Virus record (IMG/VR): IMGVR_UViG_3300025886_000069
Source: a virus
Reading direction: 5' to 3' (one strand)
Length of the DNA stretch: 40,420 bases
The notes under the pieces: generated by a model
The model's input: only the letters and a program-made list of their open reading frames with translations
Database searches by the model: none
What the model was told of the DNA's origin: nothing
Program-made: the position numbers and the translations under genes
Part shown: positions 1 to 40,420 of the stretch, one piece after another
How positions within the stretch are numbered: position 1 is the stretch's first letter
Layout of the letters: the number at the start of each line of letters is the position of its first letter

Positions 1-127
1 AAAAAAGCCAGCTAAGGAGACCCGACATGGCTACTACAAAACGAATTATCGCCGAAGGAACTGTTGAGTGGGTTAAGATTTTCTCGGACCACTTTGATGA
101 TAACATGCAGTATCACGAAAACACTAA
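1..127. repeat. Terminal overlap: identical to 40294-40420 (circular closure or terminal redundancy)
   Basis: Base-by-base comparison of the two ends; unit length is 40293 bp. Confidence 0.95.
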
Positions 128-7421: not shown

Positions 7422-7451
7422 AGCCCCCTTGACTTCACGGTTAGGGGGGCT
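7422..7451 (+). other. Hairpin AGCCCCC-N16-GGGGGCT after phoH (possible weak terminator)
   Basis: 7-bp GC stem read directly; no T-run; overlaps the candidate promoter. Confidence 0.3.
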
Positions 7452-7457
7452 TAAGTA
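7429..7457 (+). promoter_or_regulatory. Candidate sigma70-type promoter TTGACT-N17-TAAGTA
   Basis: Read directly. Same architecture recurs at 9185 and 34301, each just before an SD-led first gene. Confidence 0.35.
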
Positions 7458-7485
7458 AGGTGGGTAACAACAAAAGGACTCCCCT

Positions 7486-7610: not shown

Positions 7611-7826
7611 ATGGAACTGTCAAAATCAACCTCAACTATCTACAACCACCTGAAGGTCACCGGCTCCATTAGCCAACGGGAAGCTCTGGTGGAGTACAGC
7701 ACCGGCTCACTGTCCAAGGAAATCTCCCGACTCCGGGAAGCTGGTGTAGCCATTCAGACCGTGACGAAGACTCATCCAATCACCGGCAAAGCTTATGCCC
7801 GGTACGTGCTTTCCGAACAGGAGTAG
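7611..7826 (+). CDS. Winged helix-turn-helix DNA-binding protein
   Basis: GAAAGGA SD. GSISQREALVEY...LSKEISRLREAGVAI...GKAYARYVL fits a wHTH pattern. Confidence 0.5.
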   Translation: MELSKSTSTIYNHLKVTGSISQREALVEYSTGSLSKEISRLREAGVAIQTVTKTHPITGKAYARYVLSEQE

Positions 7827-8471: not shown

Positions 8472-9107
8472 ATGAAAAACGTACTTCTCTCTCTCGTTCT
8501 GGTCCTCGGGCTCTCGGGTATCTCCCAAGCCCGTACACTGCCCACTTTCAAAGTTTGTGCTGAACAAGCTAACAACGGCTGGATCCTTTACGGTATCCCA
8601 TCCTCCACTCACGTTGTCTGGGACACCCGGGAAACCGTAGGTCCCCTAATCGGAAACGGTAACTGTCAGGAAGGCTGGTCCGAGGAAGATAAGGTAGACT
8701 TCCGGCTCTCCTCCGAAATGCCACGTAAGTTTTGCCCGAGTGTTCACAGCTGGACCCTCGTATCCCCAGAAGGTGTAGCCGTCCAAGGGGCTACCTCTCC
8801 GGTTTATCCTTGCCGAGTAGCACCGAAGGAAACCGGTGGTAAGCCCTTGGGTAGTCGGGGAAAAGTGAAAGCTGCAAAAACGGGAGACGGCTCAGACACC
8901 GGGTCAGACGATGGAACCGACACCGACACTGACACCGACACTGGTACCGACACTGGTACCGACACTGACACCGACACTGGTACCGGGTCAGACGATGGCT
9001 CAGGTGGTAACCCTTGCGGAGGGAACTGTGGCAACGGTAACGGCAACGGAGGCGGTAACGGGACCGGCAACGAAGGTGGTGGCAACGACTCCCACCCACA
9101 CCGGTGA
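8472..9107 (+). CDS. Secreted Cys-containing protein with a Thr-Asp / Gly-Asn low-complexity tail
   Basis: Signal peptide MKNVLLSLVLVLGLSGISQA/RT. C-terminus GTDTDTDTDTGTDTGTDTDTDTGTG...GNGNGNGGGNGTGNEGGGN. Confidence 0.6.
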   Translation: MKNVLLSLVLVLGLSGISQARTLPTFKVCAEQANNGWILYGIPSSTHVVWDTRETVGPLIGNGNCQEGWSEEDKVDFRLSSEMPRKFCPSVHSWTLVSPEGVAVQGATSPVYPCRVAPKETGGKPLGSRGKVKAAKTGDGSDTGSDDGTDTDTDTDTGTDTGTDTDTDTGTGSDDGSGGNPCGGNCGNGNGNGGGNGTGNEGGGNDSHPHR

Positions 9108-9133
9108 AGCCTAGCCGTTAAGTGACTGTCCAA

Positions 9134-9173
9134 GGGGACACTGGGGTTTTTTGACTCTGGTGTCCCTTTTTTT
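9134..9173 (+). terminator. Rho-independent terminator
   Basis: GGGGACACTGG / CTGGTGTCCC stem (two G-U pairs) followed by T7. Confidence 0.6.
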
Positions 9174-9184
9174 GTTCAGGGGTG

Positions 9185-9213
9185 TTGACTTCCGGGTCAG
9201 CAGTTATTAAATA
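9185..9213 (+). promoter_or_regulatory. Candidate sigma70-type promoter TTGACT-N17-TAAATA
   Basis: Read directly; lies between the terminator and the SD-led ORF at 9241. Confidence 0.35.
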
Positions 9214-9240: not shown

Positions 9241-9432
9241 ATGAACAACTCAATCCAGTGGGCTTACACAGCAGGCGGCAACGATGCTTACTACGGTAGG
9301 AACTGCTCTGCTAACTTTTACGTAAACGGTAACGTCCTCCGAGGTACACAGGTCACAAACCTCACAGAGGAAGAACGTGAAGCCTACCTTGAAGGTTACA
9401 ACGACGAAACCGATGGAAAGGACTGGGGCTAA
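9241..9432 (+). CDS. Hypothetical small protein
   Basis: AAAGGA SD upstream. 63 aa of natural-looking composition (…EEEREAYLEGYNDETDGKDWG). Confidence 0.5.
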   Translation: MNNSIQWAYTAGGNDAYYGRNCSANFYVNGNVLRGTQVTNLTEEEREAYLEGYNDETDGKDWG

Positions 9433-9605
9433 TGGTTGACGTCTGGGACCAGAAAACTTGGAAGGACCTCAGGGTCCTCCGTACCGAACTCCGAGAGGAA
9501 CTGTTCGATTGCACAGACCCCAAGCTTGAGGCTTCACTACAAGCCCAGCTGAACTCGGTACAAAGTGATATAGAGCAGGGGTTGACCGTACAGGTCCCCT
9601 TTTGA
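9432..9605 (+). CDS. Hypothetical small helical protein (57 aa, not in the ORF track)
   Basis: TAATG coupling. Translation MVDVWDQKTWKDLRVLRTELREELFDCTDPKLEASLQAQLNSVQSDIEQGLTVQVPF. Confidence 0.4.
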   Translation: MVDVWDQKTWKDLRVLRTELREELFDCTDPKLEASLQAQLNSVQSDIEQGLTVQVPF

Positions 9606-9673
9606 GCTACTACAGCCTCCAGAGAGGCGAGGCTTAAAATTGATACTGCAACCAAGTTTGATACTTTAGGCAC
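9603..9673 (-). repeat. Left arm of a 71-bp imperfect inverted repeat (partner 11353-11423)
   Basis: The reverse complement aligns with 11353-11423 without gaps, 60/71 identical. Encodes VPKVSNLVAVSILSLASLEAVVAQ. Confidence 0.9.
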
Positions 9674-9682
9674 TCTAACGAA
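9656..9682 (+). repeat. 27-bp perfect direct repeat, copy 1 (GTTTGATACTTTAGGCACTCTAACGAA)
   Basis: Identical to 9912-9938. Confidence 0.95.
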
Positions 9683-9747
9683 ATTGGGATTGTCAGACTC
9701 CCTGCCTCTTGGCTAAAGCTCTGGCTCTCTCCTCCTCCCAAACTTAG

Positions 9748-9781
9748 GGCCTCCAGTGGAAACACCGGGGGCCTCTTTTTT
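9748..9781 (+). terminator. Rho-independent terminator
   Basis: GGCCTCCAGTG-GAAA-CACCGGGGGCC stem-loop (one mismatch, one G-U pair) followed by TCTTTTTT. Confidence 0.6.
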
Positions 9782-9911
9782 GTCTAGGCTTCGGTAGCCC
9801 CAGAAGCCCCACACAGGGGCTCTAACTTATGGGTGGTGTGGTTACCCATCTGGAATAGTTAATGGCTGTCAGTGGCCTTTCTAGGGGGCTCTCTAGGGGG
9901 CTGGACTCGGT

Positions 9912-9938
9912 GTTTGATACTTTAGGCACTCTAACGAA
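9912..9938 (+). repeat. 27-bp perfect direct repeat, copy 2
   Basis: Identical to 9656-9682. Confidence 0.95.
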
Positions 9939-9953
9939 CTTTCCAAGGTGTCC

Positions 9954-9988
9954 GGGGGACCAGACGGGGGAAGTGACGGGGAGGGGGG
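9954..9988 (+). other. Canonical G-quadruplex motif G5-N7-G5-N7-G4-N1-G6
   Basis: GGGGGACCAGACGGGGGAAGTGACGGGGAGGGGGG read directly. Confidence 0.5.
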
Positions 9989-10124
9989 TTGTTCTTTTGA
10001 GTCAATGGGTTGGCTTGGGAACTGTGAGTAAAATGCTCACGTTTTTACGAGAGGGGGGCTCTGGTGGGGCTATGGTATTGGCTGCAAAATTGCACCTTGA
10101 GTTGCAAGATTTCTTATGAACTAT

Positions 10125-10516
10125 CGTTTTAGGATATGCCAAAATAGCTAAACTTTGGCTCAAACCAGAGCCTAACCTAAAGTAGTACCCCGACGAGAAA
10201 TAGATAAAATTTTAGTCAAATTGTTTTTCAACTGACACGGGTGTCCCGACGAAAGTTACCTAAAGTTTGACTCAAGTTTTACCACTACTCAAACGGGTGT
10301 CCCGACGGAAGTTACCTAAAGTTTGACTCAAGTTTTACCACTACTCAAACGGGTGTCTCTCCAAAAGTTACCTAAAGTTTGACTCAAGTTTTATCACCAC
10401 CCCAAGGTGTACTCCGACGGAAGATAGCTAAAATTAGAGCTAAAGTTTTCCTCTCGTAAAACGAGTGTCCCGACTAAAGATAGCTAAAATTAGAGCTAAA
10501 GTTTTCCTCTCGTATT
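10125..10516 (+). repeat. Seven tandem 56-bp iterons in two sub-families
   Basis: Units begin at 10125, 10181, 10237, 10293, 10349, 10405 and 10461. Units 10237 and 10293 are 55/56 identical. Shared core ACGGGTGTCCCGACG-AAG-TA(C/G)CTAAA-...-AAGTTTT. Confidence 0.9.
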
Positions 10517-10980
10517 TTGACTACGCAAAAGTCATACCGTTTATTTTGTCTCAAATTTTATGCAACTCTCGATTGAGTCCCAGACACCAGAGCCCTTCCG
10601 CAGTGAAGCCGGGGGTCATTCCAAAAGTACGGGGGGTACTTGAGATAGACTGACTGAACACTGGGGTATCCTTTTCGAATCACTTTCCCTGATCTGAGGT
10701 TGTAGTTTTCCGGAGGGACTCTCGTTTTAACCTAGACTTGTACCGTTCCCAATTAGCTCAAACTTTAGTCTTTACTTTAGCACTGTGACACTGGGGCAAC
10801 ACTGGGGGAACTCCGGTGGGTAGGTTCTACTTTTTGGATACGTCGGAAGACGGGAGTGGGTCCCTCAGGGTTCTAGGGGACGTTGTGGGGGCCTTGGGCT
10901 TACGGTTACATTTCCAAAATAAAAAAATAAGTTGTGACTACACAAAAAAGGAAAGCTGAATTGAACGGTACGAATGCCTT

Positions 10981-11094
10981 ACCAGAGTCCCACCAGAGCC
11001 CCACTAGAGTCCCACTAGAGCCCCACTAGGGGCATACCAGAGTACCATACCAGAGCACCTTACCAGAGTCCCACTAGAGTCATACTAGAGCTAA
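10981..11094 (+). repeat. About ten tandem 11-bp repeats, AC(C/T)AGAG(T/C)CCC
   Basis: accagagtccc accagagcccc actagagtccc actagagcccc actaggggcat accagagtacc ... accagagtccc actagagtcat actagagctaa. Confidence 0.9.
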
Positions 11095-11346
11095 AACCCC
11101 AGTAAAACCGTAGCTAAACCCCAGACCTCCTAACCCTCTAAATCGTAAACCCTTGAAATCCTTGGGTTTTCCCTACCGTAACCATATGTCTAAAAAAAGA
11201 GGTATATATTACTATAGTAAGAACTAGAGTTAAGGCCTCTAGAGTTACAACAAGGAAAACCGGTTAAGGTTAATTCCTAATAATTAATTTGCTAAGAGTC
11301 TTAAGGGTCCTTAAGGAAAACTTTAGTAAGGACTCTTGTAAGGACT

Positions 11347-11910
11347 TTGACAGTGCCTAAAGTATCAAATTTATTTGTAGTATTAATTTTAAGCCTTACC
11401 TCTTTAGGAGCTGTAGTAGCTCAGACTACGAATTATTCAGTAGAGGTTGAGCCTTACGTTATCGTAGTAGACAATGATCTCCGAGACGTAAGCCGAACAA
11501 TCAGCATCGACTCTGACAGTACCAAAAGAACCCTTGTGGTTAATAATCAAAACTTCAAGATTAAATCCAATTCTGGTTTTGTAGTAGAGCTTAGAATGCC
11601 AATGGATTTGGTTAGGGGCTACTGTGTCCCTGTCTTCAGGAATGACTCTAGTAATACCTATGTCAAAGCTGAGTTGATTGTCCGTGCGGGGAAGTCCCTT
11701 TATGACTCCCGTGGCCCTTCGTTCAACCACCTTACAAGAGGCGTTGTCATTGACTGCGACTCATCCGGAGTGGGAAGCCTCCTCATCACTAGACCTGAGC
11801 CAAGCCTTTCCCCTCTGGAATTTACAATCTGGTTAGCATTCCCAGCCGGGGAGCACTTAGCCGGAACCTACGATTTTACCATTCAGGTTTTCCCTCAAGT
11901 TATTGAATAG
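11347..11910 (+). CDS. Secreted beta-rich protein of unknown function (AT-rich moron)
   Basis: TTG at 11347 or GTG at 11353. Signal peptide KVSNLFVVLILSLTSLGAVVAQ/TT. Visibly more AT-rich than its neighbours. C-terminus ...AGTYDFTIQVFPQVIE. Confidence 0.6.
   Translation: MTVPKVSNLFVVLILSLTSLGAVVAQTTNYSVEVEPYVIVVDNDLRDVSRTISIDSDSTKRTLVVNNQNFKIKSNSGFVVELRMPMDLVRGYCVPVFRNDSSNTYVKAELIVRAGKSLYDSRGPSFNHLTRGVVIDCDSSGVGSLLITRPEPSLSPLEFTIWLAFPAGEHLAGTYDFTIQVFPQVIE
11353..11423 (+). repeat. Right arm of the 71-bp inverted repeat (start codon plus signal-peptide codons of the 11347 gene)
   Basis: See the left arm at 9603-9673. Confidence 0.9.
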
Positions 11911-24843: not shown

Positions 24844-27393
24844 ATGGCTAAATATGAGCTGGTCTTAGGGACTGCTGAACTAGACACACCAATCACTCTC
24901 TCCGTACTAGAGTCCTCTGGACCCAAGGGAGAGACTGGGGACACCGGCCCACAAGGTCCTCAAGGTATCCAAGGGGATCAGGGGATTCAGGGGGCCACTG
25001 GTCTCACTGGTGCAACGGGTCCTACAGGTGCCACAGGTGCAGGGTTTACCGGAGGCTCCTACTCAGTAGGCACCGGTGTTGTTACCTTCACCTCCGCAGA
25101 TGGCCTTGGCTTTGTTACCGGGGACCTTCGGGGAGCCGATGGCACCAACGGAACAGACGGAACAAACGGGACTGGCTTTACCGGAGGCTCCTACAATGCT
25201 TCCACCGGTGTTGTTACCTTTACCTCTACAGATGGCCTTGGCTTTGTCACCGGGGACCTTCGGGGAGCCGATGGTCTGGGTACAGGTACGGTTGAATCTG
25301 TAGCTACGGGCTCCGGGTTGACGGGTGGCCCTGTCACCACAACCGGCACAATTTCCCATGCTGACACTTCTACTCAGCTTTCCCTTACTGCCCTGACTGG
25401 TGCAGACGTAGTCTCCGACGTAGACCTTGATGATTTCGGACACGTCACAGCACTTGCTACCCGGACCATGCTCCTGTCAGACCTCGGGTACACCGGGGAA
25501 ACCAATGCCACAGCTGACCAAACAGGTGCAGAGATTAAGTCTGCCTACGAAGCTGAGTTGGACACCAACGCCTACACCGATGCAGAGAAATCAAAGCTTG
25601 CTGGTGTAGAAGCTTCCGCAGATGTAACCGATACCGTCAACGTAACCGCAGCCGGTGCTTTGATGGACTCAGAGCTAACGGCTATCTCCTCAGTCAAGGC
25701 TCTGGACCAAGGTGTAGCAACTACGGATAGCCCTGCTTTTGCAGGACTTACGGTAGACACCAACACCATCAAAGTTGACTCCATTAATAACCGGGTTGGT
25801 ATCGTTCAAGCTGTTCCTACTGAGTCTCTGGACGTTGTTGGTAATATCGCAGTCTCCGGTACGGTAGACGGACGGGACCTTGCTACAGACGGCTCCAAGC
25901 TGGACGGTATCGAAGCAGGGGCAACAGGTGACCAGACAGGGGCAGAGATTAAGTCTGCCTACGAAGCTGAGTTGGACACCAATGCTTACACCGACACAGA
26001 GAAATCAAAGCTTGCCGGGATTGAGGCCGCAGCAGATGTTACGGATTCAACAAATGTAACCGCAGCCGGTGCTTTGATGGACTCAGAGCTAACGGCTATC
26101 TCCTCAGTCAAGGCATTAAACCAAGGTGTAGCAACGACGGATAGTCCGGGCTTCGTGAACCTGACTCTCTCAGGTGACCTTACCGTAAACGGTACGACAA
26201 CAACCCTAGACACTGCAAACCTGACAGTAGACGACTCCCTGATTGAGTTATCCCGTAACACCGCAGCAGCTCCTGTAAATGATGCTGGTATTGTTATTGA
26301 ACGGGGAACCTCGGACAATGCTTTCATCGGTTGGGACGAAAGTGTTGACAAGTTCGTAGTAGGAACCGGGACATTTACCGGAGCCACTACAGGAAACCTT
26401 ACAGTTACCACAGGGACACTTGTGGCCAACCTTGAGGGGACCGTGGACGGGCGTAACATCACAACGGACGGCTCCAAGCTGGACGGTATTGAGTCCGGAG
26501 CTACAGCTGACCAGACAGGGGCAGAGATTAAAGCAGCTTACGAAGCTGAACTTAACGCCTTTACCGATGCACAATTCACTAAGCTCTCAGGTATCGAGAC
26601 AGGGGCTACAGCAGACCAAACCGGTGCAGAGATTAAAGCAGCTTACGAAGCTGAACTTAACGCCTTTACCGATGCACAATTCACTAAGCTCTCAGGTATC
26701 GAGACAGGGGCTACAGCAGACCAGACAGGGGCAGAGATTAAAGCAGCTTACGAGGCTGAACTTAACGCATTTACTGATGCACAATTCACTAAGCTCTCAG
26801 GTATCGAGACAGGGGCTACAGCTGACCAGACGGGGGCAGAGATTAAGACTTCCCTGTTTGCCGAGGCTGACACCAACAACCTGACCGATACCCTGCTTAC
26901 CAAGTTGAACGGAGTCGAAGCCTCTGCGGATGTAACGGATTCAACAAACGTAACCGCAGCCGGTGCTTTGATGGACTCAGAGCTAACAGCCATTGCTTCC
27001 GTCAAGGCTCTGGACCAAGGTGTAGCAACTACGGACAGTCCTACCTTCGTGGCCGTGTCAGACAGCACCGGGAACCTTCGGGATATCCCACAGACAACCA
27101 AGACAGCAGCCTATGTTCTGGTCATTGGTGATGCAGGGACTCATATCTCAATCACCACCGGTGGGATCACGGTAAACCCCAACGTCTTCCAAGTGGGTGA
27201 CGCAGTGTCCATCTACAATGACTCTGGTGCTAGTCAAACCATAACACAGGGTACGAACTGCACTCTGCGTCTTGCAGGTACGACCACAACGGGGAACTTA
27301 ACCTTGGCAGAGTACGGGGTGTGTACCATTCTCTGCGTCAAAGACGTAACAGATGCAGACGTGTTTGTAGTTACCGGGGGAGGAATCAGCTAA
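24844..27393 (+). CDS. Tail fibre with a collagen-like stalk and nested repeat modules
   Basis: 13 consecutive G-X-Y triplets (aa 26-65). 44-aa repeat x2 (GFTGGSY...GDLRGADG). About 75-aa module x3 (…VTAAGALMDSELTAISSVKALDQGVATTDSP). 35-aa tandem repeat x3-4. Confidence 0.8.
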   Translation: MAKYELVLGTAELDTPITLSVLESSGPKGETGDTGPQGPQGIQGDQGIQGATGLTGATGPTGATGAGFTGGSYSVGTGVVTFTSADGLGFVTGDLRGADGTNGTDGTNGTGFTGGSYNASTGVVTFTSTDGLGFVTGDLRGADGLGTGTVESVATGSGLTGGPVTTTGTISHADTSTQLSLTALTGADVVSDVDLDDFGHVTALATRTMLLSDLGYTGETNATADQTGAEIKSAYEAELDTNAYTDAEKSKLAGVEASADVTDTVNVTAAGALMDSELTAISSVKALDQGVATTDSPAFAGLTVDTNTIKVDSINNRVGIVQAVPTESLDVVGNIAVSGTVDGRDLATDGSKLDGIEAGATGDQTGAEIKSAYEAELDTNAYTDTEKSKLAGIEAAADVTDSTNVTAAGALMDSELTAISSVKALNQGVATTDSPGFVNLTLSGDLTVNGTTTTLDTANLTVDDSLIELSRNTAAAPVNDAGIVIERGTSDNAFIGWDESVDKFVVGTGTFTGATTGNLTVTTGTLVANLEGTVDGRNITTDGSKLDGIESGATADQTGAEIKAAYEAELNAFTDAQFTKLSGIETGATADQTGAEIKAAYEAELNAFTDAQFTKLSGIETGATADQTGAEIKAAYEAELNAFTDAQFTKLSGIETGATADQTGAEIKTSLFAEADTNNLTDTLLTKLNGVEASADVTDSTNVTAAGALMDSELTAIASVKALDQGVATTDSPTFVAVSDSTGNLRDIPQTTKTAAYVLVIGDAGTHISITTGGITVNPNVFQVGDAVSIYNDSGASQTITQGTNCTLRLAGTTTTGNLTLAEYGVCTILCVKDVTDADVFVVTGGGIS
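24919..25038 (+). repeat. Collagen-like (G-X-Y)13 coding repeat
   Basis: GPKGETGDTGPQGPQGIQGDQGIQGATGLTGATGPTGATG. Confidence 0.9.
26497..26845 (+). repeat. 105-bp tandem repeat, three near-identical copies plus a diverged fourth
   Basis: GCAGAGATTA recurs at 26521, 26626, 26731 and 26836. Each copy encodes GATADQTGAEIKAAYEAELNAFTDAQFTKLSGIET. Confidence 0.9.
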
Positions 27394-34279: not shown

Positions 34280-34300
34280 GTCTCTAGTGCATTTTTACTC

Positions 34301-34328
34301 TTGATTTCCTCGGAGGAGGGTTTAAGTT
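34301..34328 (+). promoter_or_regulatory. Candidate sigma70-type promoter TTGATT-N16-TAAGTT (early operon)
   Basis: Read directly; lies just downstream of the strong terminator and upstream of the SD-led ORF at 34366. Confidence 0.4.
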
Positions 34329-34365
34329 AGTTACATACCAACCACCCAAACCGAAAGGCTACCCC

Positions 34366-34792: not shown

Positions 34793-35052
34793 AGAACTTT
34801 AAAGAGATAGAACAAGCAGCCCGGGACCAGCTGGTAGAAGCCCACCTTAAGACTGTAGGTGCCACGATTTGCCCACCGGCAACTCACTCCGAAACAGTGT
34901 CACCCAAGCTACCCTCTGCGGAGGACCGGGTAATGCGAAGTGACTACTACGCCTCCCTCACGTACCGGGAGCTTAACGGGTTGGAGCTTGCCTCTTGCAC
35001 CGAGGACGGTGTAGACGAAAGCCAGAAGAAAGGTAAGACAGGTGACGAATAA
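34789..35052 (+). CDS. Hypothetical early protein
   Basis: ATGA coupling; 87 aa. Confidence 0.45.
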   Translation: MKNFKEIEQAARDQLVEAHLKTVGATICPPATHSETVSPKLPSAEDRVMRSDYYASLTYRELNGLELASCTEDGVDESQKKGKTGDE

Positions 35053-35065
35053 AGAGCAGACGGAC

Positions 35066-35611
35066 ATGGTGAAGGTTGTAAGCAGCCTGTCATGGAAGTT
35101 CAATGACCCACAGATTCAGCAGGACTTGTTTCAAGTTGGGGCTGTAGCTTGGTTGGAGTCTGTCAACAAAGGGGACGGTAGGGAAGCTGTTGAGGCTTGG
35201 GAAGCAATGAATGACTTTATGTCTAAGTCGAAAATTGCAGTAACTGTGCCGATGCACGAAGGGACCCGGACTGCACTTAAGAGGATCCGTTCTGGCCATT
35301 CTTGGAACGAAGGTGATTGTTTGGACCGAAAGTCCTACGAGAGCCTTGCCACAGTTTTAGGTGGGATGGGGATGGTTGCCGATGAAATGCCTAGAGCATC
35401 TTCTAAGAAGTCTGAGACTACGGTGTATTTTCAGCAGTTGGAGAACTTGGTCTCTCGGAAGTTCGGAGAGCAGTACGTGCAACTTTTCGTGCTACATTAC
35501 GGGGAAATGGGCTACACCTTGCAGGAAGTTGCTAACGAGTCGGGCCTTGGTTTGTCCCTCGTGAAGAAGATGAACAGTCAGCTTAAAGCCTTTTTACGGG
35601 CTAAATCGTAA
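35066..35611 (+). CDS. Sigma-70 family (ECF-like) RNA polymerase sigma factor
   Basis: Region-2-like IQQDLFQVGAVAWLESV. Region-4 HTH-like QYVQLFVLHYGEMGYTLQEVANESGLGLSLVKKMNSQLKAFLRA. ATG at 35066 preferred over GTG at 35042. Confidence 0.55.
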   Translation: MVKVVSSLSWKFNDPQIQQDLFQVGAVAWLESVNKGDGREAVEAWEAMNDFMSKSKIAVTVPMHEGTRTALKRIRSGHSWNEGDCLDRKSYESLATVLGGMGMVADEMPRASSKKSETTVYFQQLENLVSRKFGEQYVQLFVLHYGEMGYTLQEVANESGLGLSLVKKMNSQLKAFLRAKS

Positions 35612-35669: not shown

Positions 35670-37268
35670 ATGTACTTAAACGAAGAACAGTCCCACCAAC
35701 CTTGTCCACACCCAAGCTGTAGCTCTTCCGACGGGTTCAGCTTTAACCCTGAAAAGGGAGTTGGTAAGTGCTTTAGCTGTGATAATGCCTACCCTGCAAA
35801 AGGGGTAAATTACTCAGAGGAAACCCGAATGAACTACCCACTTAAGGACAACGACAACATTTCCTCGTTTGTCCCAAAACACATTCAAGCCAAGGACAAC
35901 GGAAAACTTAAGTCTGGTTTTGTAGCCATGCGGGGGATTTCTGAGAACACTATGGCTTTCTATGGGGTCAAGACTTACTCCGACAACGAAGGCCCTGTTA
36001 AGCAGGAATACACCTACCCCTCCGGTGGTCAGAAGGTCCGGTACTTCCCCAAGGCATTTTCTGCAAACGGGCTCCGCCAAGACGAACTGTTTGGGATGAA
36101 CCTTTGGAACGCAGGTTCGGCTAGGTTTGTGACAGTGACCGAAGGGGAGCTAGACGCCCTCTCAGCCTACCAAATCCTCCAAGGGACCTACACCAACCCT
36201 GTAGTCTCTTTCCCGTCTGCAACTCCGTCTAAAGGTCTTTGGGAGAAGTGTGGTCCTTGGTTGGATAGCTTCGAAAAGATCATTGTTGCCACAGACAGTG
36301 ATGCTCCCGGCAATGCTCTTGCTGAGAAAATCTTTCGTCTGTTCCCGTCCAAGACTTACCGGATGAACTTCGACAAGTACAAGGACCCCAACGAGTTCCT
36401 GTCAAACGGCAAGCAGCAAGAATTTAAGTCTGCTTGGTACAATGCCCGGAAGTTCACTCCGGAGAACGTGCTTACTACCCCAGACCAGCTGCTCTCTCTC
36501 TACCGGGACACACCGGACCACCAGTTCGCCCCTACGGGAATCCAAGCACTAGACGACAAGTTGTTAGGTATCCATCAAGGGCAGTTCCACGTTCTTAAGG
36601 CTGCTACCGGTATTGGCAAAACTGAAGTGATGCGGTTCCTTGAGTTTAGCTTACTTAAGCAGGGGATACCCTTTGCAGCTTGGCACTTGGAGGAAACAAA
36701 GCTCCGGACACTTTTGGGTCTGGTCTCCTACCAGCTAGGTAAGAACGTAACCCGACGTGACTTGATTGAGGACGAAGAGACGAATGCGGAAGTTGAGAAG
36801 GCAATTCAAGAGATTGCAGAAAAGGAGGTCTTCCACCAGTTTTACATGCCGGAGGGCTCTACCATTGATGACTTTATCGAACAAATCCGGTACTTCGCCA
36901 CAGCTGCGGAAGTAAAGTTCATCTTCTTTGAGCCGATTCAGGATGTAGTCTCCGGGATGACTGACGAAAACAAAGAGGCGTTGCTTGCAGACCTGTCTGT
37001 CCGTCTTTCTAAGCTTGCTGCGGAGTTGAACATCGCCCTTGTGACCATCGGCCACACTAACGAAATGGGGGAGGTTAAGTATTGCCGAATGATAACCCAA
37101 CGTGCAGGCGTAGTTATCGACATTCACCGGGACAAAGAGTCCGAGGACCTAGAGGAACGAAACACCACCTACTTGACGATTAAGAAGAACCGTCCTTGCT
37201 CTGAGGAAGGTACAGCCGGTAAGCTCCGGTTTGACCCTCGATCCTTCACCCTACAGGAGATTTTGTGA
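35670..37268 (+). CDS. Bifunctional primase-helicase (T7 gp4-like)
   Basis: Zn finger CPHPSC...x16...CFSC, TOPRIM VTVTEGELDALS and ATDSDAPGN, Walker A KAATGIGKTE, Walker B IFFEPIQD. ATG at 35670 has a GGAGAGG SD; alternative ATG at 35634. Confidence 0.85.
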   Translation: MYLNEEQSHQPCPHPSCSSSDGFSFNPEKGVGKCFSCDNAYPAKGVNYSEETRMNYPLKDNDNISSFVPKHIQAKDNGKLKSGFVAMRGISENTMAFYGVKTYSDNEGPVKQEYTYPSGGQKVRYFPKAFSANGLRQDELFGMNLWNAGSARFVTVTEGELDALSAYQILQGTYTNPVVSFPSATPSKGLWEKCGPWLDSFEKIIVATDSDAPGNALAEKIFRLFPSKTYRMNFDKYKDPNEFLSNGKQQEFKSAWYNARKFTPENVLTTPDQLLSLYRDTPDHQFAPTGIQALDDKLLGIHQGQFHVLKAATGIGKTEVMRFLEFSLLKQGIPFAAWHLEETKLRTLLGLVSYQLGKNVTRRDLIEDEETNAEVEKAIQEIAEKEVFHQFYMPEGSTIDDFIEQIRYFATAAEVKFIFFEPIQDVVSGMTDENKEALLADLSVRLSKLAAELNIALVTIGHTNEMGEVKYCRMITQRAGVVIDIHRDKESEDLEERNTTYLTIKKNRPCSEEGTAGKLRFDPRSFTLQEIL

Positions 37269-38398
37269 TGACTGAATTAAACCTAATGCTTGGCAACTGC
37301 CTAGACAGCCTGAAGACCCTAGAGGACAATTCGGTGGATTCCATCGTGACTGACCCGCCCTATGGTCTGTCATTCATGGGTAAGAAGTGGGACTACGAGG
37401 TCCCTAGTGTAGCAATCTGGGAGGAATGCCTCCGGGTACTGAAACCCGGGGGACACCTGTTGGCCTTTGCTGGCACTCGTACACAGCATAGAATGGCAGT
37501 AAACATCGAAGATGCAGGATTTGAAATCCGTGACATGATTGCATGGGTCTATGGTTCTGGCTTTACTAAGTCTCACAATATCAGCAAGGCTATTGATAAG
37601 ATGGCCGGGGCTAGACGTGAGGTTGTTGGCTTCAAGCGTCAAGGACCGAAGTCCATGTTTCACGACGGTAAGCCACGGCCCGAAACTCTGCCCGAAACTC
37701 TGCCCGAAACTCTGCTTGCCAAGAAATGGGACGGCTGGGGTACTGCCTTGAAACCTGCCCTTGAACCTATCACTGTTGCTCGTAAACCTATCTCGGAAAA
37801 GACCGTGGCAGGTAATGTTCTGAAGTATGGGACAGGGGCTATTAACATCGATGGTTGTCGGGTGGGGGATGAGGGCGGATGTGCAGGTGCAGGTGCAGGT
37901 GCAGGTGCAAGGGTCTACGGGAACGGATTAAACGGGACGTTTGCAAAACCCGTCGAAGGGTTAGGCCGCTTCCCTGCAAACCTAATCCATGATGGTTCGG
38001 ATGAGGTGCTTGAGTTGGCAGGCGATTCCGCCCGTTTCTTCTACTGTGCCAAGGCGTCTAAGAAAGATCGTGATGAAGGTCTAGCTCATATGGAAGAACA
38101 GCAGTTTGTTCAGTGGCAGACAGGAAACGGTGCTAGTGGCAAGCCTTCCTCTATGTCGGAGGGACGTGACACCAAACGGAAGAACACACACCCAACGGTA
38201 AAGCCTACGGACCTCATGCGTTATTTGGTCCGACTTGTCACCCACGAGGGTGGTGTAGTCCTTGACCCATTCATGGGATCTGGCAGTACCGGCAAGGCTG
38301 CAATGCTTGAGGGGTTTAATTTCCTTGGCATGGAGCTTGACGAGGAATATATGGAAATTGCAAAGGCTCGTATCGAGTCCGTAAGGAGTAAAGAATGA
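37268..38398 (+). CDS. DNA methyltransferase (N6-adenine/N4-cytosine, beta class)
   Basis: IVTDPPYG catalytic motif near the N-terminus and VLDPFMGSGSTGKAA SAM motif near the C-terminus; TGATG coupling. Confidence 0.85.
   Translation: MTELNLMLGNCLDSLKTLEDNSVDSIVTDPPYGLSFMGKKWDYEVPSVAIWEECLRVLKPGGHLLAFAGTRTQHRMAVNIEDAGFEIRDMIAWVYGSGFTKSHNISKAIDKMAGARREVVGFKRQGPKSMFHDGKPRPETLPETLPETLLAKKWDGWGTALKPALEPITVARKPISEKTVAGNVLKYGTGAINIDGCRVGDEGGCAGAGAGAGARVYGNGLNGTFAKPVEGLGRFPANLIHDGSDEVLELAGDSARFFYCAKASKKDRDEGLAHMEEQQFVQWQTGNGASGKPSSMSEGRDTKRKNTHPTVKPTDLMRYLVRLVTHEGGVVLDPFMGSGSTGKAAMLEGFNFLGMELDEEYMEIAKARIESVRSKE
37679..37714 (+). repeat. Perfect (CCCGAAACTCTG)x3 in-frame repeat (PETLPETLPETL)
   Basis: Read directly inside the methyltransferase gene. 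Confidence 0.95.
37883..37906 (+). repeat. Perfect (GCAGGT)x4 in-frame repeat (AGAGAGAG)
   Basis: Read directly inside the methyltransferase gene. Confidence 0.95.
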
Positions 38399-40293: not shown

Positions 40294-40420
40294 AAAAAAG
40301 CCAGCTAAGGAGACCCGACATGGCTACTACAAAACGAATTATCGCCGAAGGAACTGTTGAGTGGGTTAAGATTTTCTCGGACCACTTTGATGATAACATG
40401 CAGTATCACGAAAACACTAA
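40294..40420. repeat. Terminal overlap, second copy (identical to 1-127)
   Basis: Includes the duplicated first 101 nt of the SSB gene (ATG at 40320). Confidence 0.95.

What the first reader, a model, noticed from the sequence alone, without database searches (positions are those of the whole stretch)
10125..10516. Seven tandem 56-bp iterons with internal 11-12-nt phasing
The units keep an exact 56-bp period starting at 10125, 10181, 10237, 10293, 10349, 10405 and 10461. They fall into two sub-families:
- ...GTTACCTAAAGTTTGACTCAAGTTTTACCACTACTCAA
- ...GATAGCTAAAATTAGAGCTAAAGTTTTCCTCTCGTAAA

Both share the head ACGGGTGTCCCGACG. Two adjacent units are 55/56 identical. Inside each unit AAAGTT recurs every 11-12 nt, which suggests phased bending. 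The array is not coding, because the overlapping track ORF is low-complexity. It is also not CRISPR-like. It looks like an iteron origin or a multi-site landing pad for a DNA-binding protein.
Basis: partly seen in the sequence, partly recalled or inferred. Interest (0 to 1): 0.7.

Follow-up and report, generated by a model that had tools for sequence, protein, structure and literature searches.

The report
Polymorphic 56-bp repeat array in phage
A marine roseophage-like genome carries a real, non-coding, predicted-curved array of five to six 56-bp repeats whose copy number varies between strains; it looks like a multi-site docking pad for a DNA-binding protein (origin-type or sigma-factor-type), but its function is not established.

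Summary
The repeat is real, but it has five clean 56-bp units (10237-10516), not seven. One more unit is decayed (10181) and one is marginal (10125). It lies in the only large non-coding region (9606-11352) of a circularly assembled 40,293-bp phage genome. This region sits between the early-operon terminator and the late/packaging operon. TerL is 81% identical to that of Roseobacter phage CRP-6.

Each unit holds three CTAAAR/AAAGTT boxes spaced 10-12 bp, followed by a conserved AACGRGWGTC tail. The array is non-coding, does not fold as a structured RNA, and is among the most curved DNA predicted in the genome. Low-stability AT-rich DNA flanks it.

Near-identical contigs carry 4-6 units. Relatives with 94% TerL identity keep the same core at 70-71-bp spacing. 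More distant relatives have other arrays in the equivalent region.

The boxes match the sigma-28 -35 element TAAAGTTT exactly, and all seven genome copies lie in this region. The phage also encodes a FliA-like sigma factor. However, the -10 part does not match a sigma-28 promoter.

My best reading is an iteron-type landing pad, probably at a replication origin (confidence about 0.3). The rivals are sigma-specific tandem promoters, T7-like terminal-repeat-associated boxes, a late-gene operator array, and a neutral minisatellite.

The parts
9606..11352 (.). The only large non-coding region of the genome, between the last early gene (9432-9605) and the first late gene (11353-11910). It contains every element listed below.
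   Evidence: ORF and gap analysis. A terminator-like hairpin lies at 9747-9781. Twelve of the 15 genome copies of CTAAAGT lie here, as do all 7 copies of TAAAGTTT.
10237..10292 (+). Unit A1 (type A): head ACGGGTGTCCCGACG, boxes AAAGTT / CTAAAGTTT / CTCAAGTTTT, tail ACCACTACTCAA.
10293..10348 (+). Unit A2 (type A), 55/56 identical to A1. This unit is gained or lost between strains.
10349..10404 (+). Unit A3 (type A variant), 47-48/56 to A1 and A2.
10405..10460 (+). Unit B1 (type B): boxes CTAAAG? / CTAAAATT / CTAAAGTTT, then TCCTCTCGTAAA. With the head of the next unit it forms TAAAGTTT-N11-AACGAGTGTC.
10461..10516 (+). Unit B2 (type B, last unit). Its tail is cut short (…CTCTCGTATT).
10181..10236 (+). 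Decayed sixth unit, 34-35/56 to the type consensus (random 56-mers reach at most 27).
10125..10180 (+). Marginal relic of a unit, 25/56 (99.9th percentile of random 56-mers is 26).
10715..10781 (-). Decayed copy of a unit in inverted orientation. On the minus strand it reads GCTAAAGTAAAGACTAAAGTTTGAGC…TAAAACGAGAGTCCC.
   Evidence: (I7, I8, I13)
10505..10573 (.). AT-rich, low-stability segment directly after the array. 10474-10573 is the third least stable 100-mer of the genome.
10195..10234 (.). AT-rich segment directly before the first clean unit. It is the fourth least stable 40-mer of the genome.
9656..9685 (-). Isolated CCTAAAGT box inside a 30-nt motif that recurs at 9912-9941 and, inverted, at the start of the first late gene.
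   Evidence: (D6, I1, I2)
9912..9941 (-). Second copy of the 30-nt motif with a CCTAAAGT box.
11318..11326 (-). Isolated exact CTAAAGTTT box on the minus strand, just upstream of the first late gene.
11356..11363 (+). CCTAAAGT box overlapping the start codon region of the first late gene. It is also conserved in L002, although the reading frame there differs.
35042..35611 (+). Candidate trans-acting reader (inferred only): a 189-aa phage sigma-70-family protein that is FliA-like.

Best explanation
The array is an iteron-type landing pad. It consists of five (plus one or two decayed) 56-bp composite modules. Each module presents three CTAAAR/AAAGTT boxes 10-12 bp apart, on roughly one face of the helix, followed by a conserved AACGRGWGTC tail.

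**Proposed mechanism**
- A sequence-specific protein binds the phased boxes cooperatively.
- The DNA is already intrinsically curved, and binding wraps it further.
- This loads stress on the low-stability AT-rich segments that flank the array (10195-10234 and 10505-10573).
- Those segments then mark where replication starts. The phage has a T7-like replisome (primase-helicase, family-A polymerase, 5'-3' exonuclease) and no recognisable initiator.

**Shown**
- repeat structure, phasing, predicted curvature and low-stability flanks
- conservation of the core in related lineages
- restriction of the motif to this region
- copy-number polymorphism
- absence of coding and RNA-structure signals
- in relatives, independence of such arrays from the small terminase

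**Inferred**
- that a protein binds
- which protein it is
- that the outcome is origin firing
For: - The array is unique and far beyond chance.
- The boxes are phased at 10-12 bp.
- With a wedge model, 10422-10522 is the 2nd most curved 100-bp window in the genome and 10271-10421 is the 2nd most curved 150-bp window.
- The flanks rank among the least stable DNA in the genome.
- An inverted decayed unit lies about 200 bp beyond the AT-rich segment.
- The 44-nt core CTAAAATTnGAGCTAAAGTTT..CT.TCGTAAAACGRGWGTC is kept in L002 and L003. Their unit spacing is 70-71 bp instead of 56 bp, and the rest of their non-coding DNA barely aligns.
- The bipartite motif occurs nowhere else in 619 kb of related loci.
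- Relatives across the TerL family carry other helically phased arrays with periods of 11, 12, 21, 24 and 48 bp in the equivalent region.
- In CRP-6-like relatives, array type is uncoupled from the TerS N-terminal domain. That domain is 100% identical in L053 and in L060/L062/L072, which carry different arrays.
- GANTC sites are enriched 2.4-fold in the region, and the phage encodes a PF01555 methyltransferase.
- There is no ORF across the array.
- RNA folding gives z-scores of -0.7 and +0.4.
- No Rfam match lies within the array. The one weak sub-threshold match in the scanned region is at 9717-9788, outside the array.
Against: - No Rep/O/DnaA-type initiator domain was found among the annotated proteins.
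- No DnaA-box or CtrA-box consensus lies in the region.
- The units are 56-bp composites rather than 17-22-bp iterons.
- Copy number varies from 4 to 6 among near-identical strains, so the exact number is not critical.
- T7-type replisomes classically start at promoter-plus-AT-rich origins, not at iterons.
- GC skew is not informative, because all genes lie on one strand.
- The least stable DNA of the genome is at 11184-11400, not next to the array.
- All evidence for protein binding is indirect.
Confidence: 0.3

Rival explanations
1. The units are tandem phage-specific promoters, or docking sites, for the phage's own sigma factor. Each unit's second box (TAAAGTTT or TCAAGTTT) acts as a -35 element. 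After 11-12 nt, the conserved AACGRGWGTC acts as a divergent -10 or discriminator. The early-expressed 189-aa FliA/ECF-like sigma (35042-35611) directs host core RNA polymerase to fire rightward. Transcription runs into the AT-rich segment and on towards the late operon. It serves late transcription, or it primes replication as at the promoter-plus-AT-rich origins of T7 and T4.
For: - TAAAGTTT is the E. coli sigma-28 -35 element, with an 11-nt spacer to the -10 (PMC4183435 Table 2).
- All 7 exact copies in the genome lie in this region. They also give the 7 best -35-half scores with a weight matrix built from 49 of the 52 mapped E. coli FliA sites.
- AAGTTT-N11-12-AACGRG occurs 3 times, only in the array. 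The same motif is found only in the homologous arrays of L001-L003 across 619 kb. All copies face the late genes.
- A profile of the phage sigma and its homologues hits FliA in the PDB at E = 5e-6.
- Pfam region 2 matches 7 of 8 homologues and region 4 matches 5 of 8.
- No sigma-70-type promoter was found on the + strand between the terminator and the late genes.
Against: - The -10 half fails. Full matrix scores are 1.7-4.3 bits, against at least 8 (median 16.8) for real E. coli FliA sites.
- Only 3 of the 5 units have the full bipartite motif.
- The exact TAAAGTTT box in type A units is not the one paired with the tail.
- Three boxes per unit are not needed for a promoter.
- Promoters 56 bp apart would occlude each other.
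- Arrays with 11-21-bp periods in relatives cannot be promoters.
- In CRP-6 the late operon starts after a terminator in a separate region that has no arrays.
- The sigma's specificity is unknown.
Confidence: 0.2
2. The array is a set of terminus-associated short repeats, like the T7 SRL/SRR boxes. On this view the 1.7-kb non-coding region is the concatemer junction of a genome with a short direct terminal repeat, collapsed by the circular assembly. The CTAAAG boxes lie within or beside the repeat and act in end recognition, end pairing or processing.
For: - In T7, 16 of the 25 CCTAAAG copies lie in the terminal 340 bp (left) and 270 bp (right).
- Here, 7 of the 10 CCTAAAG copies and 12 of the 15 CTAAAGT copies lie in the non-coding region.
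- The replisome genes are T7-like.
- TerL relatives at 44% identity, Arthrobacter phages Tank and Wilde, have 589-bp direct terminal repeats (PMC5513430).
- This is the only non-coding stretch long enough to hold a short non-coding terminal repeat.
- It lies just upstream of the terS-terL genes.
Against: - No physical-end information exists. The contig closes on itself with a 127-bp overlap inside a gene.
- Contig ends of relatives and near-identical strains do not coincide.
- Tank's own terminal repeat has no such arrays.
- The function of the T7 boxes is itself unknown (my own knowledge).
- Sharing a 6-7-nt A/T-rich word can be coincidence.
Confidence: 0.2
3. The array is an operator or regulator array for the early-to-late switch. 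A phage regulator would bind CTAAAGT boxes in the array and also the isolated boxes that flank and overlap the start of the first late gene. A candidate is the 71-aa winged-helix protein at 7611-7826. Binding would loop the DNA and control late expression.
For: - CTAAAGT boxes also lie at 11320 (-) and 11357 (+), over the start of the late gene. The latter is conserved in L002 despite a change of reading frame.
- Inverted boxes lie on both sides of the array.
- A winged-helix protein (PF14090) is encoded in the early region.
Against: - There is no evidence linking any regulator to the boxes.
- There is no lysogeny or immunity module.
- The arrays are far larger than usual operators.
- The copy-number variation argues against precise looping geometry.
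Confidence: 0.12
4. The array is a neutral minisatellite. It would be a by-product of slippage or unequal crossing-over in non-essential spacer DNA, with no function of its own.
For: - Copy number and A/B composition vary among strains that otherwise differ by 0-12 substitutions in 1.7 kb.
- More distant relatives have unrelated arrays.
Against: - The 44-nt core is conserved across lineages at about 75% genome identity, while the linkers and the surrounding non-coding DNA have diverged or changed length.
- The first and last units are always retained.
- Repeat arrays in this region are a family-wide feature.
- The motif is restricted to this region.
Confidence: 0.08

Closest known systems
Iteron-type origins (ori-lambda with four 19-bp iterons, phased A-tracts and an adjacent AT-rich region; plasmid iteron origins)
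   Same: Both have several direct repeats in one orientation, helical phasing, intrinsic curvature and adjacent easily melted DNA. Both have lineage-specific sequences.
   Different: The units here are 56-bp composites with three sub-boxes, and they come in two sub-types. No O/Rep-type initiator and no DnaA boxes were found. Copy number is polymorphic. The array lies in intergenic DNA rather than inside an initiator gene. The properties of ori-lambda are from my own knowledge.
Short repeats in and beside the terminal repeat of phage T7 (SRL/SRR, CCTAAAG boxes)
   Same: Both show the same core word, (C)CTAAAG(T), clustered in one non-coding region of a phage with a T7-type replisome. T7 has 16 of 25 copies at its ends. 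Here 7 of 10 CCTAAAG copies lie in the region.
   Different: The T7 boxes are single heptamers at about 13-bp spacing, not organised in 56-bp units. Their position relative to physical ends is known in T7 and unknown here. The terminase and the virion module are not T7-like.
Sigma-28 (FliA) class 3 promoters, TAAAGTTT-N11-GCCGATAA
   Same: The -35 element matches exactly and the spacer is 11 nt in type B units. A FliA-like sigma is encoded by the phage.
   Different: The -10 element is AACGRGWG and scores far below real FliA sites. The elements are tandem at 56 bp. No such site stands in front of any other gene.
Small-terminase recognition arrays (lambda cosB R sites, SPP1 pacL boxes, P1 pac hexamers with Dam sites)
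   Same: Both are repeated, bent DNA near the terminase genes. The local enrichment of methylation-type sites (GANTC), together with a phage methyltransferase, recalls P1 pac.
   Different: In related phages the array type does not follow the TerS DNA-binding domain. The array is 1.4 kb and one gene away from terS. Type B units contain no GANTC.

Membership tests
Iteron-type replication origin | Three or more direct repeats in one orientation, helically phased | tested here: met
   There are five clean units at an exact 56-bp period, with sub-boxes at 10-12 bp.
Iteron-type replication origin | Repeat unit of about 17-22 bp at a spacing of about two helical turns | tested here: not met
   The units are 56-bp composites of two sub-types.
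Iteron-type replication origin | Adjacent AT-rich DNA-unwinding region | tested here: met
   10195-10234 is the 4th least stable 40-mer and 10474-10573 is the 3rd least stable 100-mer in the genome. The genome minimum, however, is at 11184-11400.
Iteron-type replication origin | Cognate initiator (Rep/O/alpha-type) encoded by the element | tested here: inconclusive
   No initiator domain was found in PHROGs or Pfam scans of about 45 ORFs. Several small early ORFs remain unannotated.
Iteron-type replication origin | Host DnaA boxes (or CtrA boxes in alphaproteobacteria) in the origin | tested here: not met
   TTWTNCACA has 5 genome hits and none lies in the region. TTAA-N7-TTAA has 0 hits.
Iteron-type replication origin | Origin activity (initiation maps here; the cloned array interferes with replication) | not testable with these tools
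   This needs an isolate or time-resolved sequencing.
Sigma-28 (FliA) promoter | -35 element TAAAGTTT | tested here: met
   There are 7 exact copies, all in 10261-11325. They give the top 7 -35-half scores in the genome.
Sigma-28 (FliA) promoter | 11-nt spacer to a -10 element GCCGATAA | tested here: not met
   The spacer is 11 nt (type B) or 12 nt (type A). The -10 half scores -5.7 to -15.5 bits. Full scores are 1.7-4.3, against at least 8 for E. coli sites.
Sigma-28 (FliA) promoter | A sigma-28-type sigma factor available | tested here: met
   The phage ORF at 35042-35611 is FliA-like. A profile hits FliA at E = 5e-6. Pfam regions 2 and 4 give weak matches in most homologues.
Sigma-28 (FliA) promoter | Transcription starts downstream of the -10 element | not testable with these tools
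   No transcript data are available.
T7-type terminal-repeat-associated short repeats | Cluster of CCTAAAG-type boxes confined to one non-coding region | tested here: met
   7 of 10 CCTAAAG and 12 of 15 CTAAAGT copies lie in 9606-11400. In T7, 16 of 25 copies are at the ends.
T7-type terminal-repeat-associated short repeats | Position in or next to a direct terminal repeat at the physical genome ends | not testable with these tools
   The assembly is circular with a 127-bp overlap. Contig ends are not consistent.
Small-terminase (pac/cosB) recognition site | Specificity co-varies with the TerS DNA-binding domain | tested here: not met
   This was tested in CRP-6-like relatives, not in the window lineage. 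An identical TerS N-terminal domain occurs with different arrays.
CRISPR array | Constant repeats alternating with unique spacers | tested here: not met
   The whole 56-bp unit is repeated. No cas genes were seen.
Structured non-coding RNA | Stable or conserved secondary structure, or an Rfam match | tested here: not met
   Fold z-scores are -0.73 and +0.37. There is no Rfam match in the array. The CTCTCG/CGAGAG hairpin is not maintained in the other units or lineages (read).

The most novel reading that the evidence does not exclude
The array is a multi-copy docking and promoter module read by the phage's own fast-evolving FliA/ECF-like sigma factor. The phased TAAAGTTT boxes recruit sigma-loaded host polymerase. 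Transcription fires into the adjacent AT-rich DNA and primes replication, and possibly late transcription too. This would be a transcription-activated origin specified by a phage sigma in a phage with a T7-like replisome. Copy number would act as a tunable strength control that varies in natural populations.
Probability: 0.2. Interest if true: 0.75.

Novelty: new variant of a known kind. Interest (0 to 1): 0.45.

Why it matters
The window belongs to the wider relatives of the CRP-6-type roseophages. PMC6918029 reports that group as abundant in coastal oceans. Nothing is known about where these genomes start replication, how they switch to late transcription, or what their ends look like.

This array, together with the equivalent arrays in hundreds of related contigs, marks the one region where those cis-acting functions must reside. 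The coincidence of a sigma-28-type -35 box with a phage-encoded FliA-like sigma gives a concrete hypothesis that is cheap to test.

The array is also a practical problem. It breaks or gaps short-read assemblies, and its copy number differs between strains.

Tried and rejected
- **Structured RNA or known RNA family:** rejected. Fold z-scores are about 0, and there is no Rfam or tRNA match in the array.
- **Coding repeat:** rejected. The period is not a multiple of 3 and no ORF spans the array.
- **Sigma-70 tandem promoters:** rejected. The -35-like TTGACT in type A units has no -10 partner. The consensus scan finds none on the + strand. The phage's own three sigma-70-like promoters read TTGAYT-N16-17-TAARTW (read).
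- **E. coli-type FliA promoters:** the -10 half fails. The best full-matrix hits elsewhere are at chance level.
- **T7-type primase-site cluster** (GTC, GGGTC, TGGTC, GTGTC): no enrichment.
- **DnaA or CtrA box clusters:** none.
- **TerS landing pad:** disfavoured by the uncoupling seen in relatives. The TerS N-terminal domain does evolve faster than TerL.
- **Invertible segment bounded by the 72-nt inverted repeat:** no recombinase was found, the left arm is not a credible gene, and the repeat is absent from L002.
- **Physical ends from contig ends or a terminal repeat on a 38-kb relative:** nothing consistent.
- **Arrays in the terminal repeat of Arthrobacter phage Tank:** none.
- **Neighbour-gene covariation to find the binding protein:** inconclusive.
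- **Pairing sigma alleles with array types:** this failed because sigma relatives in the viral collection are few and lie about 15 kb from the array.
- **GC skew:** uninformative, because all genes lie on one strand.
- **Similar DNA in 50,697 phage records:** none.
Full report
**1. What is there**

- Tandem Repeats Finder reports one array at 10237-10505, with period 56, 4.8 copies, 81% matches and score 299.
- In 56-bp register there are five clean units, at 10237, 10293, 10349, 10405 and 10461.
- The first three are type A and are 55, 48 and 47 of 56 identical to each other. The last two are type B and are 47/56 identical. Identity between types is 28-38/56.
- Self-identity at lag 56 is 0.79. 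The genome mean is 0.247 (sd 0.049) and the highest value away from the array region (outside 9800-10900) is 0.344.
The best score among 10,000 random 56-mers from this genome is 27.
- The shared head is exact only in units 1 and 2.
- Each unit carries three boxes, at offsets 15, 25 and 36/37: AAAGTT, CTAAAGTTT and CTCAAGTTTT in type A; CTAAAG, CTAAAATT and CTAAAGTTT in type B.
- Self-identity rises to 0.34 at lag 11 and 0.38 at lag 12.
- No ORF spans the array and 56 is not a multiple of 3.

**2. Where it sits**

- The first 127 bases of the window equal the last 127. It is therefore a circularly closed assembly of a 40,293-bp genome.
- All genes are on the + strand.
- An early/replication block runs from about 34366 across the junction to 9605. 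It encodes:
  - a sigma-like protein
  - a T7-type primase-helicase
  - a PF01555 methyltransferase
  - a family-A polymerase
  - a 5'-3' exonuclease
  - RusA, MazG, ribonucleotide reductase, ThyX, glutaredoxin and PhoH
  - a winged-helix protein
- It ends with terminator-like hairpins at 9132-9169 and 9747-9781.
- The late block starts at 11353 with a secreted protein. It continues with a small-terminase-like gene (11933), TerL (12347), portal, capsid, tail tube, tape measure and fibres.
- The 1,747 bp between them is the only large non-coding stretch.
- TerL is 81% identical to that of Roseobacter phage CRP-6.
- Nothing in 50,697 phage records resembles the non-coding DNA.
- The same region also holds:
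  - an 11-bp array (ACCAGAGTCCC, 8.8 copies, 10977-11090), with an inverted partial copy at 10052-10077
  - a 12-bp doublet at 9880
  - a 72-nt inverted repeat (9603-9674 / 11352-11423)
  - a 50-nt A-rich block
  - a perfect 12-bp palindrome, TTACTATAGTAA

**3. Physical properties**

- I used a wedge model of my own implementation, with parameters recalled from Bolshoy et al. 1991. With it, 10422-10522 is the second most curved 100-bp window in the genome and 10271-10421 is the second most curved 150-bp window.
- The segments just before (10195-10234) and after (10474-10573) the array are among the least stable duplex in the genome. The absolute minimum lies at 11184-11400, near the late genes.
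- As RNA, neither strand folds better than shuffled sequence (z = -0.73 and +0.37).
- There is no Rfam or tRNA match in the array.

**4. Motif restriction**

- CTAAAGT occurs 15 times in the genome, and 12 of those lie between 9663 and 11363.
- The octamer TAAAGTTT occurs 7 times, all in the non-coding region. Five copies are in the array on the + strand. Two are on the - strand, at 10760 and 11318.
- A bipartite form, AAGTTT-N11-12-AACGRG, occurs three times, only in the array.

**5. Relatives**

- More than 598 viral contigs encode a related TerL.
- Two lineages with 94% TerL identity (L001/L002 and L003) have a syntenic non-coding region. It contains units of 70-71 bp that share a 44-nt core, CTAAAATTTGAGCTAAAGTTTG.CT.TCGTAAAACGGGAGTC. 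The linkers differ in length and sequence, and most other non-coding DNA cannot be aligned.
- The bipartite motif is found only in these lineages among 619 kb of related loci.
- More distant relatives, at 77-83% TerL identity, have other arrays in the equivalent region:
  - 48/24/12-bp CCTGG-rich units
  - 11-bp GTTCCTGATTC, 10-12 copies
  - 21-bp and 16-17-bp units
  - a recurrent ATTTTCCAC..GGGG motif
- Repeat arrays are therefore a family trait and their sequence is lineage-specific.

**6. Population variation**

- Ten contigs from independent samples encode an identical TerS. Across the 1.7 kb they differ from the window by 0-12 substitutions.
- They carry different array alleles:

| Contig(s) | Units |
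|---|---|
| window and five contigs | A A A' B B' |
| L126 | A A' B B' |
| L128 | A A' B B B' |
| L132 | A A A' B B B' |

- Two scaffolds (L130, L131) have N-gaps inside the array.
- The only other indel is a 12-bp unit at 9880. The 11-bp array never varies.
- Short-read assemblers can miscount tandem copies, so long reads are needed to confirm these alleles. The in-register pattern fits unequal crossing-over.

**7. Tests of specific functions**

- *Small-terminase site.* The TerS N-terminal domain evolves faster than TerL (39-50% against 80-83% identity). However, in CRP-6-like relatives an identical N-terminal domain goes with different arrays (L053 against L060/L062/L072; L057 against L029/L035/L047). 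The array there is a swapped cassette between conserved flanks.
- *Genome terminus.*
  - T7 carries 16 of its 25 CCTAAAG copies in its terminal 340 and 270 bp. Here 7 of 10 copies lie in the non-coding region.
  - TerL relatives Tank and Wilde have 589-bp direct terminal repeats (PMC5513430).
  - Tank's terminal repeat has no arrays, and no consistent contig ends were found.
  - This rival remains open.
- *Host initiator boxes.* There are none.
- *Primase sites.* There is no enrichment.
- *Methylation.* GANTC is 2.4-fold enriched in the region and up to 30 per kb in some relatives' arrays. Type B units have none, and the CCTGG-type arrays have none.

**8. The sigma lead**

- ORF 35042-35611 (189 aa) belongs to the sigma-70 family.
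- A profile of it and seven homologues hits FliA in the PDB at E = 5e-6.
- Pfam region 2 matches in 7 of 8 homologues and region 4 in 5 of 8, all weakly.
- The E. coli FliA promoter is TAAAGTTT-N11-GCCGATAA (PMC4183435 Table 2).
- I built a weight matrix from 49 of the paper's 52 mapped sites. The array boxes take the seven best -35-half scores in the genome. Full scores are only 1.7-4.3 bits, against at least 8 for real sites, because the -10 half (AACGRGWG) does not fit.
- The better full hits elsewhere are at chance level.
- The units are therefore not sigma-28 promoters by the E. coli definition. A divergent sigma that reads the same -35 box and a different -10 is not excluded.
- The sigma gene is far more diverged between relatives (48% aa, no nucleotide match) than its flanks (78-84% nt).

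**9. Verdict**

The evidence supports a cis-acting, phased, multi-site protein-binding module. It does not show which process the module serves.

| Reading | Confidence |
|---|---|
| Origin-type iteron pad | 0.30 |
| Sigma-specific promoter or docking array | 0.20 |
| T7-like terminus-associated boxes | 0.20 |
| Late-gene operator array | 0.12 |
| Neutral minisatellite | 0.08 |

It is a new variant of a known kind of element, in an abundant but poorly understood group of marine phages.

Noticed in passing
window 1-127 and 40294-40420: The two ends share an exact 127-bp overlap. The window is a circularly closed assembly of a 40,293-bp genome, cut inside a gene.
   Followed up: yes
window 35042-35611: This ORF encodes a 189-aa phage sigma-70-family factor that is FliA/ECF-like. 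A profile against the PDB hits FliA at E = 5e-6, and Pfam regions 2 and 4 match weakly in most homologues. The gene is much more diverged between relatives than its flanking genes.
   Followed up: partly
window 9603-9674 and 11352-11423 (also 9912-9941): A 72-nt inverted repeat (85% complementary) brackets the whole non-coding region. Its right arm is the start and signal peptide of the first late gene. The left arm opens only an implausible antisense ORF. The repeat is absent from the L002 lineage.
   Followed up: partly
window 10977-11090 (inverted partial copy 10052-10077): An 11-bp array, ACCAGAGTCCC in 8.8 copies, alternates GAGTC and GAGCC. It is invariant in all near-identical contigs, unlike the 56-bp array. 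L002 and L003 have equivalent 11-bp arrays with other sequences.
   Followed up: partly
window 10911-10960 and 11199-11222: Two blocks are conserved. One is a 50-nt A-rich block (ATTTCCAAAATAAAAAAATAAGTTGTGACTACACAAAAAAGG…). The other contains a perfect 12-bp palindrome, TTACTATAGTAA (11209-11220). Both are kept in L002 and L003 and are recognisable upstream of terS in CRP-6. They are candidates for the late promoter or a packaging signal.
   Followed up: partly
window 9606-11352; arrays of L022, L029, L046, L053, L117: GANTC (CcrM-type) sites occur at 8.6 per kb in the non-coding region against 3.5 per kb elsewhere. Some relatives' arrays reach about 30 per kb. The phage encodes a PF01555 N6/N4 methyltransferase at 37265-38398. 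CCTGG-rich arrays in another lineage have no GANTC.
   Followed up: partly
window 9717-9788: There is a sub-threshold Rfam match to the alphaproteobacterial sRNA family suhB/mmgR (RF00519): 24.8 bits against a gathering score of 41, over the full model. It comprises a CUCCUCCUCCC motif plus the terminator hairpin. It was not found in L002, L003 or CRP-6.
   Followed up: partly
window 8472-9107: This 211-aa ORF contains 12-bp ACCGACACTGGT repeats. It is hypervariable in length (174-221 aa) among contigs that are otherwise near-identical, and several assemblies break here.
   Followed up: no
window 26485-26846: A 105-bp repeat in 3.4 copies (93% matches) lies inside the 849-aa tail-fibre gene. 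It is a coding repeat.
   Followed up: no
window 34296-34330, 7427-7460, 9176-9210: Three sigma-70-like promoters share an extended pattern, TTGAYTTCC.CGG…GGG..TAAGT / TAAATA. Part of the pattern resembles the ATTTTCCAYCGGAGGGG motif repeated in the arrays of CRP-6-like relatives. This was read by eye.
   Followed up: no
L053 2252-2379 versus L062 2973-3095: In two relatives with identical TerS, the second array (11-bp GTTCCTGATTC against a 21-bp unit) is swapped as a cassette of about 125 bp between conserved flanks. The genes downstream differ too.
   Followed up: partly
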